Origin: a virus
Taxonomy: Duplodnaviria > Heunggongvirae > Uroviricota > Caudoviricetes
IMG/VR virus record: IMGVR_UViG_2526164690_000029
Length of the DNA: 14,328 bases
Reading direction: 5' to 3' (one strand)
Shown: positions 1-6,366 of the stretch, piece by piece
How the letters are laid out: the number at the start of each line of letters is the position of its first letter
Numbering within the stretch: position 1 is the stretch's first letter
Notes under the pieces: generated by a model
Told to the model about the DNA's origin: nothing
The model's input: the letters and a program-made list of their open reading frames with translations, nothing else
Databases searched by the model: none
Program-made: the position numbers and the translations under genes

Positions 1-105
1 CTTGCCACCGCCTCGCAGAACGGGCATTCCCTGTTCCTGCCAGTTCTGAATGGTACGGATACTCGCACCGAAAATGTCAGCCAGCTGCTTTTTGTTGACT
101 TCCAT
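1..105 (-). CDS. nu1: Terminase small subunit Nu1, N-terminal 35 codons (gene runs off the window start)
   Basis: Reverse complement of 1..105 translates to MEVNKKQLADIFGASIRTIQNWQEQGMPVLRGGGK, matching the lambda Nu1 N-terminus as I recall it; start ATG at 105..103. Confidence 0.85.
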   Translation of the reverse strand, partial: MEVNKKQLADIFGASIRTIQNWQEQGMPVLRGGGK

Positions 106-109
106 TGTT

Positions 110-330
110 CATTCCACGGACAAAACAGAGAAAGGAAACGACAAAGGCCAAAAAGCCCGTTTTCAGCACCTGTCGTTTCCTTTCTTTTCAGGGGGTGTTT
201 TAAATAAAAACATTAGGTTACGGCGAAGAAGAACGGAAACGCCTTAAACCGGAAAATTTTCATAAATAGCGAAAACCCGCGAGGTCGCCGCCCCGTAACC
301 TGTCGGATCGCCGGAAAGGACCCGCAAAAT
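110..330. other. cos: lambda-type cohesive end site (cosB/cosN/cosQ region)
   Basis: aggtcgccgccc at 282..293 is the reverse complement of the lambda 12-nt cohesive end GGGCGGCGACCT. It lies between the Nu1 start and sequence resembling the lambda right end; cosB is expected between cosN and Nu1. Confidence 0.7.
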
Positions 331-1372: not shown

Positions 1373-1835
1373 CTATCTGCACTGCTCATTAATATACGTC
1401 TGGGTTCCTTCCAGTTGTTTTTGCATAGTGATCAGCCTCTCTCTGAGGGTGAAATAATCCCGTTCAGCGGTGTCTGCCAGTCGGGGGGAGGCTGCATTAT
1501 CCACGCCGGAGGCGGTGGTGGCTTCACGCACTGACTGACAGACTGCTTTGATGTGCAACCGACGACGACCAGCGGCAACATCATCACGCAGAGCATCATT
1601 TTCAGCTTTCGCATCAGCTAACTCCTTCGTGTATTTTGCATCGAGCGCAGCAACATCACGCTGACGCATCTGCATGTCAGTAATTGCCGCGTTCGCCAGC
1701 TTCAGTTCTCTGGCATTTTTGTCGCGCTGGGCTTTGTAGGTAATGGCGTTATCACGGTAATGATTAACAGCCCATGACAGGCAGACGATGATGCAGATAA
1801 CCAGAGCGGAGTATAATCGCGGTTACTCTGTTCAT
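1373..1835 (-). pseudogene. Rz: Rz i-spanin, frameshifted near codon 9
   Basis: ATG at 1835 overlaps the endolysin stop (ATGA) and reads MNRVTAII before hitting a stop after 24 codons. The rest of Rz (…[49 protein letters not shown]…EQCR) is intact in another frame; the difference from lambda looks like one extra A in gattatactcc. Confidence 0.75.
1432..1614 (-). CDS. Rz1: Rz1 o-spanin lipoprotein, embedded in the Rz +1 frame
   Basis: 60-aa [63 protein letters not shown], matching lambda Rz1 as recalled, with lipobox VVGC and a proline-rich tract. Confidence 0.85.
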
Positions 1836-2329
1836 TGCTGACCCCACAAACAGATTTCACGCTCAATCTCACGACGAGTCATGAGACCTTTCCATTGCTT
1901 ACCGCCAGCATATGTCCAGCGACGTAGCTGATCACATGCGCCTTTGATATCGCCCTGGTTTATTTTGCGAAGAAGCGTCGATGTTCTGAAATTGCCAGCA
2001 CCCACGTTGTAAACGAATGAGTAAAGAGCGCCGCGCGTTGTTTCCGGTATATCGACTTCGATGTACGGGTTAATTTGTCTGGCGACAGTGGCAAGGTCTT
2101 TATTCAAGAGTGCTTTGCATTCTGCTTTGGTATACGTTTTACCGGGAATGATGTCTTTTCCGGTGTGTCCGTGACATACAGTCCATACGCCAACGATATC
2201 TTCGTATGGTATGTAGCTGACACCTTCCAGGCCATCGTCACCACTCGGACCAGTGATGAGCACAGACGCTATGGCAACAGCCCCACCACCAATAGCAGCA
2301 GCAACAGCCTTGCGTAATGATGGCGACAT
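1832..2329 (-). CDS. R: SAR endolysin, T4-type lysozyme (phage 21 R / DLP12 RrrD-like)
   Basis: 165-aa ORF with a weakly hydrophobic Gly/Ala-rich N-terminus ([21 protein letters not shown]) typical of a signal-anchor-release domain, followed by a lysozyme domain. Resembles phage 21 R; the stop overlaps the Rz start. Confidence 0.9.
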
Positions 2330-2544
2330 TATTCACCTCTCGCAGCCTTACGCTTATCTTCTTTAATCTTGAAATAAAGGTTTGTCAGATACGTCAGCAA
2401 GCCAAACACCAGGCTACCCAATACGCCTATTGCCACCCACTGGGATGGGGAGACTTTGTCCAGCAACTGCAGTAGCCAGTATCCCGTCCCCACCGCTGAC
2501 GTGGTGTATGACACACCTGTTGTTATTTTTTCCATCTGGTACAT
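2329..2544 (-). CDS. S: Pinholin (phage 21 S-type) with dual-start motif
   Basis: [71 protein letters not shown] (71 aa) resembles the S21 pinholin; Met1 and Met4 give the holin/antiholin pair. The stop overlaps the endolysin start by 1 nt. Confidence 0.85.
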
Positions 2545-2952
2545 ACCCCGTCTCCCGTTATCCGGAAGCTGACAACAATAAAAAGCCACCAGTTAATTCC
2601 TGATGGCCCTGATGCATAAACGTCATAATACCTGACTGTTATGATTGACAATAATGATAATGTTTATATAGAAAGGTTCCCGATGTGTGTTACATATCAT
2701 TTCTCCACGGGGAATATCCCCACGCCAGCGCAGACTCTTTTACCCGTTCTCTTCTGCGCTGGCTCTTTTTTATTATGCTGCTGCATTTACCTCTGGCACC
2801 ATGCTTTCTATCTCAACACAATACGTGGTACTTCTTGTAACCAATATCATAACGATTAATCGACATAGAATTTCTCCCGTGTACAGGAACAGAGTTAAAA
2901 AGCCGGAACCGGAATCAAATCACAGGATGACCATCTGCCAGTGGCAGGTCAT

Positions 2953-2979
2953 AAAAAAAAGGCCGCGCCATGCGCAGCC
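2953..2979 (-). terminator. Intrinsic terminator candidate inside the late transcription unit
   Basis: Minus strand reads ggctgcgc-atg-gcgcggcc followed by TTTTTTTT (8-bp GC-rich stem with one G-U pair, then a U8 tract). Confidence 0.45.
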
Positions 2980-3693
2980 AGAACTCACAAGGAAAATGAT
3001 AGAAGGAAATAACATTAGTGATGTACGCATGGCGCCTCCCGCTAAGTTCTGCAATGATCAAACAGAACTCGCTACGTGCCCTTAAAACTCGATCATTTAG
3101 CCCCTCCAAGGAGGATTCACCATGCGGTTGATTTTTTAATAAACAGTAAACAAAAAAGTCAAGAATTATTCATTCTGTTCTTTCATCATCGGCCACAGCA
3201 ATACCACAATGCCGCAGACCAGAGCGCCATCAGTCAGTACCAACATTATCCTGCTGGTGAAATCCATCATCACCATCACTAAAAGCAGGATCACAACAGC
3301 AAGCAGACACAGTTTATAAAACAATGTTCAGAAAACGCATTCAGCATGCCTAAGGTTCTATTCCTACGAATAGCCAACTTGCAACTTAAAATATTATTTA
3401 TGCAGCCAATTAAATTCTGGTCCTTACAATATCAACCTGAAGATTCTTATCTTGTGCTGATTGATAAATGACAAACCTTTTACTACCTGCATTGAAAGAA
3501 GTAGACAAAACCAGACAATTATCATAACGAGCAAGAACATAATACCAACCATCATTATAATTAATCATTTCATATTCTTTCTTAAACTGTGGTTTGTAAT
3601 ATCCTGTCAGAAATGAAAAAAGCCAGAAATATGCCACAAAAGCAATCATCACAATCTCAAAAAAATGTTTTTTTATAAATGGCTTATCATAGA

Positions 3694-3702
3694 AGCATGA
3701 TA
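3694..3702. repeat. IS10 target-site duplication, left copy (AGCATGATA)
   Basis: The 9 bp directly left of the IS10 outside end are identical to the 9 bp directly right of the inside end (5032..5040). Confidence 0.9.
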
Positions 3703-3748
3703 CTGATGAATCCCCTAATGATTTTGGTAAAAATCATTAAGTTAAGGT

Positions 3749-3817
3749 GGATACACATCTTGTCATATGATCAAATGGTTTCGCGAAAAATCAATAATCA
3801 GACAACAAGATGTGCGA
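3749..3817 (-). ncRNA. IS10 RNA-OUT antisense RNA (position inferred from IS10 architecture)
   Basis: Established IS10 biology: pOUT drives an ~69-nt antisense RNA covering the transposase start. Coordinates are placed by offset from the IS10 outside end, not from independently recognised motifs. Confidence 0.4.
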
Positions 3818-5018
3818 ACTCGATATTTTACACGACTCTCTTTACCAATTCTGCCCCGAATTACACTTAAAACGACTCAACAGCTTAACGTTGGCTTGCC
3901 ACGCATTACTTGACTGTAAAACTCTCACTCTTACCGAACTTGGCCGTAACCTGCCAACCAAAGCGAGAACAAAACATAACATCAAACGAATCGACCGATT
4001 GTTAGGTAATCGTCACCTCCACAAAGAGCGACTCGCTGTATACCGTTGGCATGCTAGCTTTATCTGTTCGGGCAATACGATGCCCATTGTACTTGTTGAC
4101 TGGTCTGATATTCGTGAGCAAAAACGACTTATGGTATTGCGAGCTTCAGTCGCACTACACGGTCGTTCTGTTACTCTTTATGAGAAAGCGTTCCCGCTTT
4201 CAGAGCAATGTTCAAAGAAAGCTCATGACCAATTTCTAGCCGACCTTGCGAGCATTCTACCGAGTAACACCACACCGCTCATTGTCAGTGATGCTGGCTT
4301 TAAAGTGCCATGGTATAAATCCGTTGAGAAGCTGGGTTGGTACTGGTTAAGTCGAGTAAGAGGAAAAGTACAATATGCAGACCTAGGAGCGGAAAACTGG
4401 AAACCTATCAGCAACTTACATGATATGTCATCTAGTCACTCAAAGACTTTAGGCTATAAGAGGCTGACTAAAAGCAATCCAATCTCATGCCAAATTCTAT
4501 TGTATAAATCTCGCTCTAAAGGCCGAAAAAATCAGCGCTCGACACGGACTCATTGTCACCACCCGTCACCTAAAATCTACTCAGCGTCGGCAAAGGAGCC
4601 ATGGGTTCTAGCAACTAACTTACCTGTTGAAATTCGAACACCCAAACAACTTGTTAATATCTATTCGAAGCGAATGCAGATTGAAGAAACCTTCCGAGAC
4701 TTGAAAAGTCCTGCCTACGGACTAGGCCTACGCCATAGCCGAACGAGCAGCTCAGAGCGTTTTGATATCATGCTGCTAATCGCCCTGATGCTTCAACTAA
4801 CATGTTGGCTTGCGGGCGTTCATGCTCAGAAACAAGGTTGGGACAAGCACTTCCAGGCTAACACAGTCAGAAATCGAAACGTACTCTCAACAGTTCGCTT
4901 AGGCATGGAAGTTTTGCGGCATTCTGGCTACACAATAACAAGGGAAGACTTACTCGTGGCTGCAACCCTACTAGCTCAAAATTTATTCACACATGGTTAC
5001 GCTTTGGGGAAATTATGA
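3810..5018 (+). CDS. tnp: IS10 transposase (402 aa)
   Basis: ORF MCELDILHDSLYQFCPELHLKRLNSLTLACHALLDCKTLTLTELGRNLPTKARTKHNIKRIDRLLGNRH... matches the Tn10/IS10 transposase as recalled. Confidence 0.95.
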   Translation: MCELDILHDSLYQFCPELHLKRLNSLTLACHALLDCKTLTLTELGRNLPTKARTKHNIKRIDRLLGNRHLHKERLAVYRWHASFICSGNTMPIVLVDWSDIREQKRLMVLRASVALHGRSVTLYEKAFPLSEQCSKKAHDQFLADLASILPSNTTPLIVSDAGFKVPWYKSVEKLGWYWLSRVRGKVQYADLGAENWKPISNLHDMSSSHSKTLGYKRLTKSNPISCQILLYKSRSKGRKNQRSTRTHCHHPSPKIYSASAKEPWVLATNLPVEIRTPKQLVNIYSKRMQIEETFRDLKSPAYGLGLRHSRTSSSERFDIMLLIALMLQLTCWLAGVHAQKQGWDKHFQANTVRNRNVLSTVRLGMEVLRHSGYTITREDLLVAATLLAQNLFTHGYALGKL

Positions 5019-5031
5019 GGGGATCTCTCAG

Positions 5032-5040
5032 AGCATGATA
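5032..5040. repeat. IS10 target-site duplication, right copy (AGCATGATA)
   Basis: Identical to 3694..3702. Confidence 0.9.
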
Positions 5041-5639
5041 CCGATAAAAATCGCCCATAAGATCTTATCGAAATTGTAACCGCCAGCGCAATCGCTGCTG
5101 ACAGTAGCAAAAGAGGTACCTGAATCTTCTGTCTCAATATAGAAAACTCAATAATTGCCGGCACAAACAATAATTCCACAGCAAAATAAAGGCGAAATAC
5201 ATTTAGCTCTTGCATAGAATGTTTTCTTTTCACTGCGAAAAAGAATACAACACCAATACCCAACCGATAAGAAATATAGCAATGACGATAACTGCAAAAA
5301 ATAAACTTCTGGCAACATCATCAACACCTGCACCTACAATCCACCATGGGAAGCCGTAGTAAAAAGAAGTACCCCATCCATAGAAATAAGCACTCCCCCA
5401 TCCAAGGCATCCCATGTAGGCAATAAAAAGTGAAGAACTCCTGAGCAGCGCACCATCCTTCATAACCACCCCAATACAAGATGATAACATTGGCTTACAA
5501 CTCATAACAAAAGCAATTCAATGCCGTCAAGAGGTTACAGGCTAAAAAAACTCTATTACATTGCAGTCAGCATGTTTACTACACAAATACAATTCAGAGC
5601 ATAAAAACTACTCGGCGGCAGGTTATTGAGACTCATCAA

Positions 5640-5705
5640 TGACATGTAAAAAACGCCCATTATTGGTGTCAAGTTTCCCCAAAGTTATTCAAAAAGTCAA
5701 TATTA
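5640..5705 (-). promoter_or_regulatory. Late promoter pR'-like region downstream of Q
   Basis: Minus strand reads TTGACTTTTTGAATAACTTTGGGGAAACTTGACACCAATAATGGGCG, resembling the lambda pR' region (TTGACTTATTGAATAAAATTGGGTAAATTTGACT) as recalled. The -35 TTGACA lies at 5667..5672; the -10 is less clear. Confidence 0.4.
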
Positions 5706-5742
5706 TGCCGTTAATATGTTGCCATCCGTGGCAATCATGGCG

Positions 5743-6366
5743 CTAACGTGTGATCGCATTCAAAATGTTGTCTGCGATTGACTCTTCCTTGTGGCATTGC
5801 ACAACCAGAGCGTCATACAGCGGCTTAACAGTGCGTGACCAGGTGGGTTGGGTAAGGTTTGGGATTAGCATCGTCACAGCGCGATATGCGGCGCTTGCTG
5901 GCATTCTTGAATAACCGACGCCTTTACATCTTCCGCACTCTTTCTCAGCAACTATCCCCCACTGCTCTGTTTTGGCTATATCAACCGCACGGCCTGTACC
6001 GTGGCAATCTCTGCATCTTGCGCCCGGCGTAGCGGCACTACGGCAATAATCCGCATAAGCGAATGTTGCGAGCACTTGCAGTACCTTTGCCTTAGTATTT
6101 CCTTCGAGCTTTGCCACACCACGGTATTTCCCCGATACCTTGTGTGCAAATTGCATCAGATAGTTGATAGCCTTTTGTTTGTCGTTCTGGCTGAGTTCAT
6201 GCTTACCGCAGAATGCAGCCATTCCGAATCCGGCTTGTGATTGCGCCATCCCCATAGCAGCCATCACATCAGTACCAGAAAGAGAGTCAGAAGCCGTAGC
6301 CCGTGGTGAATCGCTCATCATCGGGCTTTTTGGCGAATGAAATTTAGCTACGCTTTCGAGTCTCAT
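5743..6366 (-). CDS. Q: Late-gene antiterminator Q (lambda type)
   Basis: 207-aa [113 protein letters not shown]... with the zinc-binding CRDCHGTGR…CGRCKG motif; near-identical to lambda Q as recalled. Confidence 0.95.

What the first reader, a model, noticed from the sequence alone, without database searches (positions are those of the whole stretch)
3410..5505. Moron membrane-protein gene between Q/pR' and the lysis cassette, inactivated by a simple IS10 insertion
The Q-to-S interval is the classic moron position (stx, nmpC and others in related phages). Here it carries a ~250-codon multi-pass membrane protein gene that I cannot assign to a family. IS10 interrupts it with a perfect 9-bp duplication (AGCATGATA), and the ORF reads in frame across the reconstructed empty site, so the insertion looks recent. 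There is one further frame break at a T5 run near 5235-5245.
Basis: seen in the sequence. Interest (0 to 1): 0.5.

Follow-up and report, generated by a model that had tools for sequence, protein, structure and literature searches.

The report
IS10-split phage membrane gene (TfpB family)
An ordinary IS10 jumping gene has landed in a conserved accessory membrane-protein gene of unknown function, the same gene that coliphage 434 carries. The gene lies between the late-gene activator Q and the lysis genes of a decayed lambda-like prophage, and both the gene family and this exact insertion are already in public databases.

Summary
The core observation is confirmed.
- **Insertion:** a complete 1,329-bp IS10 (3703..5031) lies between perfect 9-bp duplications (AGCATGATA). 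It sits in a minus-strand gene (3410..5490) that reads in frame once the IS and one duplicate are removed.
- **Gene:** the restored protein is 100% identical to phage 434 gp68 ('putative membrane protein') and to WP_001302581.1. The uninterrupted site occurs in 682 of 5,426 complete E. coli genomes. The IS10-filled site occurs in only two, both bovine O111:H11 strains holding at least 40 IS10 places each.
- **Family:** the gene can be assigned, to Pfam PF27470 'TfpB' and PHROG 1521. Both are of unknown function.
- **Protein:** about five membrane helices plus a small C-terminal beta domain, with no structural relative found. It is under strong purifying selection (dN/dS 0.06-0.09). 434B, whose Q-to-lysis region was replaced by DLP12 DNA, is still propagated as a phage, which suggests the gene is dispensable. 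Homologues also occur outside phages: Shigella pINV, ETEC LT plasmids, and Salmonella, Neisseria and Avibacterium chromosomes.
- **Second frame break:** It is a 1-base loss in a C run at 5259..5261, not at the T5 run. It is one of nine single-base indels private to the window, so it is probably a sequence-quality artefact.

Verdict: ordinary and already annotated, so low interest. The only open question is what TfpB-family proteins do.

The parts
3410..3702 (-). 3' part of the TfpB-family membrane-protein gene (codons ~154-247 plus stop codon 3410..3412): TM5 and the C-terminal beta domain
   Evidence: ORF list. The translation is identical to the intact allele in L002 and to phage 434 gp68.
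3694..3702 (.). Left copy of the 9-bp target-site duplication AGCATGATA
   Evidence: The same duplication is present in L001.
3703..5031 (+). IS10 (IS10R/ISVsa5-type), 1,329 bp, with the outside end at 3703
   Evidence: Ends and length. RefSeq annotates it as an 'IS4-like element ISVsa5 family transposase' in the identical locus. It is identical to both copies in L001.
3810..5018 (+). IS10 transposase ORF, 402 aa
   Evidence: PF01609 DDE_Tnp_1, E=1.5e-24.
3748..3817 (-). RNA-OUT antisense RNA of IS10. It is transcribed towards the outside end, the same direction as the phage late operon.
   Evidence: Rfam RF00240, 98.8 bits.
5032..5040 (.). Right copy of the 9-bp duplication AGCATGATA (gene codons V151-C153/F154, in the loop between TM4 and TM5)
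5041..5490 (-). 5' part of the TfpB-family gene (TM1-TM4). RefSeq start ATG is 5490..5488. The probable true start ATG is 5463..5461, preceded by GGGGTGG.
   Evidence: Homologues are 237-238 aa and align from M10.
5259..5261 (-). C3 run where every relative has C4. This -1 frameshift gives a premature TGA at 5230..5232.
   Evidence: Nearly all listed hits among the 682 uninterrupted genomes span 844 bp against the 843-bp query.
5501..5530 (-). Candidate promoter of the gene itself: TTGACG (5530..5525), 18-nt spacer, TATGAG (5506..5501). Inferred only.
   Evidence: The -35 hexamer and the TATG of the -10 are conserved in the window, 434, E. albertii, Escherichia sp. and the ETEC LT plasmid, in otherwise diverged DNA. 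The consensus scan found a neighbouring weak site at 5510..5481, but site counts were at chance level.
5544..5599 (-). Imperfect hairpin followed by U7: a terminator-like element between pR' and the gene. Inferred only.
   Evidence: Fold, with a z-score that is not significant. The homologous stretch is present in 434.
5672..5700 (-). Lambda pR'-like late promoter: TTGACT, 17-nt spacer, GAAACT
   Evidence: Read from the sequence. The resemblance to lambda pR' is from memory and was not tested.
5743..6366 (-). Lambda-type antiterminator Q, 207 aa
   Evidence: PF03589, E=1.2e-57; RefSeq annotation.
3166..3324 (-). DUF3927 small membrane protein (called TciB in the 434 record), the downstream partner in the shared module
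   Evidence: PF13064, E=3.4e-14.
2961..2979 (-). Intrinsic-terminator-like hairpin plus T8 closing the module
   Evidence: It is annotated as a terminator in phage 434.
1832..2544 (-). Lysis cassette downstream: S21-type class II holin (2329..2544) and lysozyme (1832..2329)

Best explanation
Window 3410..5490 (minus strand) is a TfpB-family inner-membrane protein gene (Pfam PF27470, PHROG 1521). It is the same gene as gp68 of coliphage 434.

**Setting.** It is the first ORF downstream of a lambda-type Q/pR' in a defective lambda/434-like prophage of an O111:H11-type E. coli. Together with a DUF3927 gene and a terminator it forms a mosaic module. That module sits behind different Q types in different phages.

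**Inactivation (shown).** A simple IS10 transposition inserted 1,329 bp into the loop between TM4 and TM5 and duplicated 9 bp. The event is recent and confined to an IS10-expanded lineage. The additional -1 frameshift at 5259..5261 is most likely a sequence error.

**Protein (predicted).** About five TM helices, N-terminus in and C-terminus out by the positive-inside rule, with a ~55-residue C-terminal beta barrel that would face the periplasm.

**Function (inferred, about 0.2 confidence).** I think it is a cell-autonomous envelope protein carried as accessory cargo. It would be transcribed from its own weak promoter in lysogens and by Q-dependent read-through after induction. Its benefit would go to the host, for example exclusion of or protection against incoming phages or toxins. 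I do not think it takes part in lysis. The biochemical activity is unknown.
For: **IS10 anatomy**
- Ends, length and duplication are as expected.
- Transposase and RNA-OUT are present.
- The O111:H11 genome carries the same insertion, annotated as two pseudogene halves around ISVsa5.

**Empty versus filled site**
- The uninterrupted site is in 682 of 5,426 genomes at >=99% identity.
- The filled junction is in 2 of 5,426.

**Gene identity**
- 100% identical to phage 434 CPT_434_68.
- PHROG 1521, E=1.9e-154.
- All 104 homologues carry PF27470, named TfpB.
- It is a real gene: dN/dS 0.055-0.086 at dS 0.23-0.32.

**Structure**
- AF2 pLDDT 84, pTM 0.78: five helices plus a five-strand domain.

**Accessory, not essential**
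- In 434B the whole Q-to-lysis region is replaced by DLP12 DNA, and it is still propagated as a phage (PMC9119081). That 434B lacks the gene follows from the annotated non-homology span, which covers it.
- Only 3 of 50,697 phage records encode it.

**Cell-autonomous**
- Intact homologues exist without any phage or lysis genes: Avibacterium and Neisseria housekeeping loci, Shigella pINV between IS elements, ETEC LT plasmids and Salmonella beside an sseJ-like gene.
- In the ETEC plasmid the DNA homology is confined to the gene plus roughly 45-70 nt upstream of its start. That stretch lies downstream of the conserved -35-like hexamer, which the upstream alignment picks up separately.
Against: - No experiment or database entry gives a function. 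Local Pfam, NCBIfam and PADLOC give nothing, and there is no fold or sequence match to solved structures.
- The promoter is only a consensus resemblance, and site counts are at chance level.
- Its position directly after pR'/tR' and next to the lysis genes would also fit a late or lysis-related role.
- Topology rests on the positive-inside rule. Helix 1 is only weakly hydrophobic.
Confidence: 0.85

Rival explanations
1. The second lesion, the -1 frameshift at 5259..5261, is not biological. It is a base-calling or assembly error in the source sequence, and IS10 is the only real lesion.
For: - Two independent complete genomes, one with IS10 and one without, agree with each other against the window.
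- They disagree with the window at 9 single-base indels and only 4 substitutions in ~12.7 kb.
- That indel-to-substitution ratio is far from what real divergence gives.
- Many of these indels fall inside otherwise intact genes. For example, 9617 splits a 590-aa ORF into 323 + 275 aa.
- The O111:H11 genome with the identical IS10 insertion has C4.
Against: - The prophage is already defective: IS10 in gene O and an internal stop in the terminase. Real decay is therefore possible.
- Not all nine indels lie in homopolymers.
- No read data are available.
Confidence: 0.65
2. The protein is a late or lysis-accessory factor. It would, for example, modulate holin timing or envelope breakdown, and it would be expressed only by Q-dependent read-through, not as a lysogenic-conversion moron.
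For: - It is the first ORF after pR'/tR', co-oriented with the holin, endolysin and spanin genes and immediately upstream of them.
- It is a multi-pass membrane protein, and it is followed by another small membrane protein, DUF3927.
Against: - 434B is still propagated as a phage although its whole Q-to-lysis region, which in 434 includes this gene, is replaced by DLP12 DNA.
- Homologues are kept intact and solitary in housekeeping loci and plasmids that have no lysis genes.
- It matches no holin or antiholin family.
Confidence: 0.1
3. The protein is functionally tied to neighbouring toxins or effectors, for example in membrane handling or release of AB5 toxins.
For: - A 59%-identical homologue lies ~870 bp from eltAB, divergently oriented, in all four ETEC contigs shown, two of them clearly plasmid-derived. 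Its cluster is indexed in over a thousand contig blocks.
- A Salmonella homologue lies beside an SseJ-like effector gene.
- The Q-to-S slot is where stx sits in related phages (established knowledge).
Against: - Most members have no toxin neighbour: this window, 434, Shigella pINV, Avibacterium and Neisseria.
- The adjacency is explained just as well by shared descent from phage late-region debris flanked by IS elements.
Confidence: 0.05
4. The split ORF is not a real gene but a chance open frame in AT-rich spacer DNA.
For: The local Pfam and NCBIfam libraries give no hit, and composition is A+T-rich.
Against: - 104 homologues in the first search, and 72 cluster representatives at 50% identity.
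- 32 invariant columns in the alignment.
- dN/dS of about 0.06.
- A confident AF2 model.
Confidence: 0.01

Closest known systems
Coliphage 434 gene CPT_434_68 'putative membrane protein' (UMO75332.1; OL657226 42170..42913)
   Same: - 100% amino-acid identity to the reconstructed product.
- 98% DNA identity over window 5032..5607 and 2842..3710.
- Same downstream DUF3927 gene (TciB) and terminator, and same slot between Q and the lysis genes.
   Different: - 434 has a Q82-type Q and a SASA (NanS-p-like) esterase between the module and the holin. The window has a lambda-type Q and no esterase.
- The 434 copy is intact.
Pfam PF27470 'TfpB' / PHROG 1521 (families of unknown function)
   Same: Every homologue, including a near-identical one reported at 100% (one residue differs in the alignment), carries the precomputed PF27470 hit. 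The PHROG profile is matched end to end.
   Different: - The PF27470 model is not in the local Pfam copy, so the score could not be recomputed here.
- The link to the Moraxella pilin-inversion-region ORF tfpB, from which I believe the name comes, is from memory and was not tested.
IS10 / IS10R of Tn10 (IS4 family; ISVsa5 isoform)
   Same: 1,329 bp, characteristic ends, 402-aa DDE transposase, RNA-OUT and a 9-bp duplication.
   Different: - It is a solitary simple insertion, not part of Tn10.
- The target AGCATGATA matches only the GC half of the preferred NGCTNAGCN hot-spot consensus (consensus from established knowledge).
Morons of the lambdoid Q-to-S interval (stx in 933W/H-19B, nmpC in DLP12)
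   Same: - Same slot.
- Present in some relatives and absent in others.
- Bounded by a terminator.
- The homologous DLP12 slot also carries an IS-disrupted gene, nmpC::IS5 (established knowledge).
   Different: There is no demonstrated promoter, lysogen expression or phenotype. The product is an inner-membrane protein of unknown role, not a toxin or a porin.

Membership tests
IS10 (IS4 family) | Element of 1,329 bp with the IS10 outside and inside terminal repeats | tested here: met
   Coordinates 3703..5031. The ends read CTGATGAATCCCCTAATGATTTT and CTGAGAGATCCCCTCATAATTTC (reverse complement). It is identical to the RefSeq-annotated ISVsa5/IS10 copies in L001.
IS10 (IS4 family) | 402-aa DDE transposase and the RNA-OUT antisense RNA near the outside end | tested here: met
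   PF01609, E=1.5e-24. RF00240, 98.8 bits against a gathering score of 41.
IS10 (IS4 family) | 9-bp target-site duplication | tested here: met
   AGCATGATA on both sides.
IS10 (IS4 family) | Preferred target NGCTNAGCN (a preference, not a requirement) | tested here: not met
   AGCATGATA matches only positions 2-3 (GC). It is not a hot spot, which favours shared descent of the two O111:H11 insertions over independent hits.
TfpB family (Pfam PF27470) | Significant match to the family HMM | tested here: met
   The test is by proxy. The precomputed PF27470.1 hit is on P0001 (reported at 100% identity; one residue differs) and on all 104 homologues, and the name is shown. The model is absent from the local Pfam copy.
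TfpB family (Pfam PF27470) | Homology to the namesake Moraxella TfpB | not tested
   No Moraxella sequence was retrieved. One Shigella dysenteriae plasmid record calls its homologue 'TfpB protein'.
PHROG 1521 | Full-length profile match | tested here: met
   E=1.9e-154; residues 26-247 match profile positions 1-222 of 222.
Moron (Juhala/Hendrix sense) | Extra gene present between genes that are adjacent in related phages | tested here: met
   - The module is bounded by homology breaks at window 5607 and 2842.
- It sits behind lambda-type Q here and Q82-type Q in 434.
- The 434B non-homology span covers it, and only 3 of 50,697 phage records encode it.
Moron (Juhala/Hendrix sense) | Own promoter | tested here: inconclusive
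   A conserved TTGACG-18-TATGAG lies upstream. The consensus scan is at chance level, and there are no expression data.
Moron (Juhala/Hendrix sense) | Own terminator | tested here: met
   GC-rich hairpin plus T8 at 2979..2961, annotated as a terminator in 434.
Moron (Juhala/Hendrix sense) | Expressed from the repressed prophage | not testable with these tools
   This needs RNA or protein data from lysogens.
Holins / lysis proteins | Match to a holin, antiholin, endolysin or spanin family | tested here: not met
   No Pfam or NCBIfam match. The true holin, lysozyme and spanin genes lie downstream.
Known anti-phage defence systems (PADLOC) | Match to a defence-system protein model | tested here: not met
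   0 families at E<=1.

The most novel reading that the evidence does not exclude
TfpB-family proteins may be an uncharacterised class of single-gene, cell-autonomous envelope proteins with a fold of their own. They are spread by virulence-linked mobile elements of enteric and mucosal pathogens: EHEC prophages and phage 434, Shigella pINV, ETEC LT plasmids, the Salmonella sseJ locus, and Neisseria and Pasteurellaceae chromosomes. They might confer a selectable trait such as phage or toxin exclusion. The IS10 knock-out here would then be a natural loss-of-function allele.
Probability: 0.15. Interest if true: 0.5.

Novelty: already known. Interest (0 to 1): 0.15.

Why it matters
As a finding it matters little. 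IS insertions in accessory prophage genes are routine. This one is already annotated in RefSeq as two pseudogene halves around ISVsa5, and the gene is already catalogued (phage 434 gp68, PF27470, PHROG 1521).

Two side points have some practical value:
- The gene belongs to a small, strongly conserved family that recurs on virulence plasmids and prophages and has no known function or fold relative. Phage 434 offers a tractable system in which to test it.
- The window carries nine private single-base indels. Frame breaks seen in this sequence should therefore not be read as biology without read support.

Tried and rejected
- **Family libraries:** local Pfam, NCBIfam and PADLOC scans of the reconstructed protein gave nothing meaningful.
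- **First AF2 run:** 33 close homologues gave pLDDT 58 and the model was discarded. Adding 17 distant representatives gave pLDDT 84.
- **Fold searches:**
  - Foldseek against PDB and BFVD gave no hit at E<=1e-3. The only signal was a weak SH3-like resemblance of the C-terminal domain.
  - afdb50 was not available.
- **Profile against PDB sequences:** nothing.
- **Literature:** searches for TciB, tciA, DUF3927 and tfpB gave nothing on this protein. The LT-II prophage paper does not mention it. The 1990 Moraxella tfpB paper is not held.
- **Related loci:** The search for related loci failed with the divergent alignment and gave only 5 loci with the close one.
- **Rejected readings:**
  - The T5 run as the lesion site.
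  - The third 62-aa 'membrane protein' annotated in 434. It is not frame-conserved in the window and overlaps the terminator.
  - An apparent SNP next to the IS junction. It was an artefact of my 2-base slicing offset.
- **tR' hairpin:** the fold is not better than shuffled sequence.
Full report
**1. Observation**

The region contains a complete IS10 of 1,329 bp at 3703..5031. It begins CTGATGAATCCCC and ends GGGGATCTCTCAG. It carries a 402-aa DDE transposase ORF on the + strand at 3810..5018. The IS10 antisense RNA, RNA-OUT, lies at 3748..3817 on the - strand with 98.8 bits.

The element is flanked by a perfect 9-bp direct repeat, AGCATGATA, at 3694..3702 and 5032..5040. Removing 3703..5040 joins two minus-strand ORF fragments into one continuous frame (...SIRSYGRFLSVSCFYDKPF...).

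- Lambda-type Q at 5743..6366 (-), PF03589.
- A lambda pR'-like TTGACT-17-GAAACT just downstream of Q.
- A DUF3927 gene at 3166..3324 (-).
- A terminator-like hairpin at 2979..2961.
- An S21-type holin at 2329..2544 (-) and a lysozyme at 1832..2329 (-).

**2. The second frame break**

The window does have one. Alignment with two complete genomes puts it at a C run, where CCC at 5259..5261 stands against CCCC in the relatives. On the gene strand this is GGGG to GGG at ...IGW|GIGVV....

A three-way comparison over ~12.7 kb is more telling. The window is the odd one out at nine single-base indels (1162, 1812, 5259, 6626, 9617, 11419, 11835, 11841, 13523) and only four substitutions. The two reference genomes agree with each other at all of these positions. 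An excess of private indels of this kind, many of them breaking otherwise intact genes, is what sequence errors look like. I therefore give about 0.65 to the frameshift being an artefact.

**3. Empty and filled sites elsewhere**

- The best genome matches are bovine and human EHEC-type strains.
- O111:H11 strain 88.0502 carries the same IS10 at the same site with the same duplication. RefSeq annotates the gene there as two partial pseudogenes around an 'ISVsa5 family transposase'.
- Strain 2013C-4538 has the empty site with an intact 744-nt gene, WP_001302581.1, annotated 'hypothetical protein'.
- The reconstructed 843-bp empty site is found uninterrupted at >=99% identity in 682 of 5,426 complete E. 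coli genomes. Nearly all listed hits span 844 bp, that is, with the extra C.
- The IS10-flank junction occurs in only two genomes, both bovine O111:H11, and each holds at least 40 IS10 places.
- The two IS10 copies in that locus are identical to each other and to the window copy. Each has its own perfect duplication.

The insertion is thus a simple, recent, lineage-specific event in an IS10-expanded strain. The target is not an IS10 hot-spot sequence, so shared descent is the likely reason the two strains have it. In another strain the same gene carries an IS1.

**4. What the gene is**

- The reconstructed protein is 100% identical to phage 434 CPT_434_68, 'putative membrane protein'.
- It matches PHROG 1521 end to end (E=1.9e-154, unknown function).
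- All 104 homologues from the large protein search carry the precomputed Pfam accession PF27470, whose name is TfpB.
- The local Pfam, NCBIfam and PADLOC libraries give nothing.
- Homologues are 237-238 aa and align from Met10 of the RefSeq model. The true start is therefore probably the ATG at 5463..5461, behind GGGGTGG.
- The family is small: 72 cluster representatives at 50% identity among 1.84 billion. It covers Enterobacteriaceae, Neisseria and Pasteurellaceae.
- dN/dS is 0.055-0.086 at dS 0.23-0.32 between Escherichia alleles, so it is a real gene under selection.

**5. Structure**

With a 50-sequence alignment AlphaFold gives pLDDT 84 and pTM 0.78. The model has helices at 12-45, 56-88, 93-120, 125-146 and 164-190, then a five-strand beta domain at 193-244.

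Hydropathy supports four strong TM segments plus a glycine- and aromatic-rich first helix. The K/R-rich loops at 88-92 and 147-163 predict N-in, C-out, which puts the beta domain in the periplasm. This topology is an inference. IS10 sits in the 147-163 loop.

No solved or viral predicted structure resembles the model. The C-terminal domain is at best weakly SH3-like.

**6. Context and likely role**

In 434 the order is Q82-type Q, terminator, this gene, DUF3927 ('TciB'), a terminator, a SASA esterase and then the lysis genes. DNA homology between the window and 434 covers only 5032..5607 and 2842..3710. The gene, DUF3927 and the terminator therefore form a mosaic module that sits behind different Q types.

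In 434B the whole Q-to-lysis region, which in 434 includes this gene, is replaced by DLP12 DNA, and 434B is still propagated as a phage. The gene therefore looks dispensable for lytic growth. Only 3 of 50,697 phage records encode it.

Homologues are also kept intact where there are no phage or lysis genes:
- Solitary among housekeeping genes in Avibacterium and Neisseria.
- Between IS elements on Shigella pINV, in 106 Shigella plasmids.
- About 870 bp from eltAB in ETEC contigs, two of them clearly plasmid-derived.
- Beside an sseJ-like gene in Salmonella.

In the ETEC plasmid the BLAST homology is confined to the gene plus roughly 45-70 nt upstream of its start. A separate alignment of the upstream regions shows a conserved TTGACG-18-TATG.. 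a little further upstream.

Together this favours a cell-autonomous envelope function carried as cargo, moron-like. The gene may be expressed from its own promoter and also by Q read-through. This fits better than a role in lysis. The activity itself is unknown. My preferred guess, an exclusion or protection function, carries only about 0.2 confidence.

**7. Comparison with the known, and verdict**

Everything structural here is already known or annotated: IS10, the target gene in phage 434, the Pfam and PHROG families, and the very same insertion in RefSeq.
- The family can be assigned.
- The frameshift is misplaced and probably artefactual.
- Strict 'moron' status is unproven.

Interest is low. 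The only open question is the function of TfpB-family proteins.

Noticed in passing
window 14041..14328 (runs off the end); duplication copy AACTTGGCT at 14032..14040: A second IS10 copy lies in the same orientation, inserted in the replication gene O just past the ori iterons (~13900..13960). In the matching O111:H11 genome it is a full 1,329-bp copy with its own perfect 9-bp duplication, and it is identical to the first copy. The two direct copies bracket ~9 kb (Q, nin region, P) and could delete that segment by recombination.
   Followed up: partly
window 1162, 1812, 5259, 6626, 9617, 11419, 11835, 11841, 13523: There are nine single-base indels private to the window, against only four private substitutions, when it is compared with two complete genomes that agree with each other. 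Several break otherwise intact genes; for example 9617 splits a 590-aa ORF into 323 + 275 aa. This looks like sequence error in the source.
   Followed up: yes
L008-L011 (ETEC contigs/plasmids), gene at 5001..5714; eltAB at 2987..4134 (-): A 59%-identical TfpB homologue sits ~870 bp from the heat-labile enterotoxin operon eltAB, divergently oriented and flanked by IS elements, with the STb gene nearby. DNA homology to the prophage copy covers only the gene and roughly 45-70 nt upstream of its start.
   Followed up: partly
L025 (pCP301 SF_p0168), L026 (S. dysenteriae pSLG231, 'TfpB protein'): An intact TfpB homologue (~56% identity to the ETEC plasmid homologue used as query) is present on 106 Shigella virulence plasmids. 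It is isolated between IS elements.
   Followed up: partly
window 3703..3817 (-) and downstream 3410..3702, 3166..3324: The IS10 outside end, with RNA-OUT/pOUT, points in the same direction as the phage late operon. Read-out transcription could therefore express the 3' gene fragment and DUF3927 without Q. The terminator at 2979..2961 would probably stop it before the holin.
   Followed up: no
window 2687..3108, both strands: The annotations conflict. RefSeq calls a 132-aa + strand ORF (2687..3085, no family). The 434 record calls a 62-aa - strand 'membrane protein' over the same DNA. The latter is not frame-conserved in the window and contains the terminator hairpin.
   Followed up: partly
window 2539..2841: Phage 434 has a 1.85-kb SASA (NanS-p-like) esterase gene between the module and the holin. 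In the window only ~300 bp of unrelated sequence occupies that slot.
   Followed up: no
window 1..248: The first 248 bases do not continue the co-linear locus of the O111:H11 genome. They match another prophage region of the same genome at 99.3% (DNA-packaging / YlcI-YnfO region). This is a mosaic or recombination junction.
   Followed up: partly
NZ_AP042478.1 (strain OkiPb01675), hit H84: In another bovine E. coli the same TfpB-family gene is interrupted by an IS1 element.
   Followed up: no
window ~13904 (gene O / ori region): The window and the O111:H11 genome share a deletion of about 90 bp in the iteron region relative to strain 2013C-4538. RefSeq also annotates the terminase large subunit of this prophage with an internal stop. 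The prophage is therefore defective independently of the IS10 hits.
   Followed up: partly
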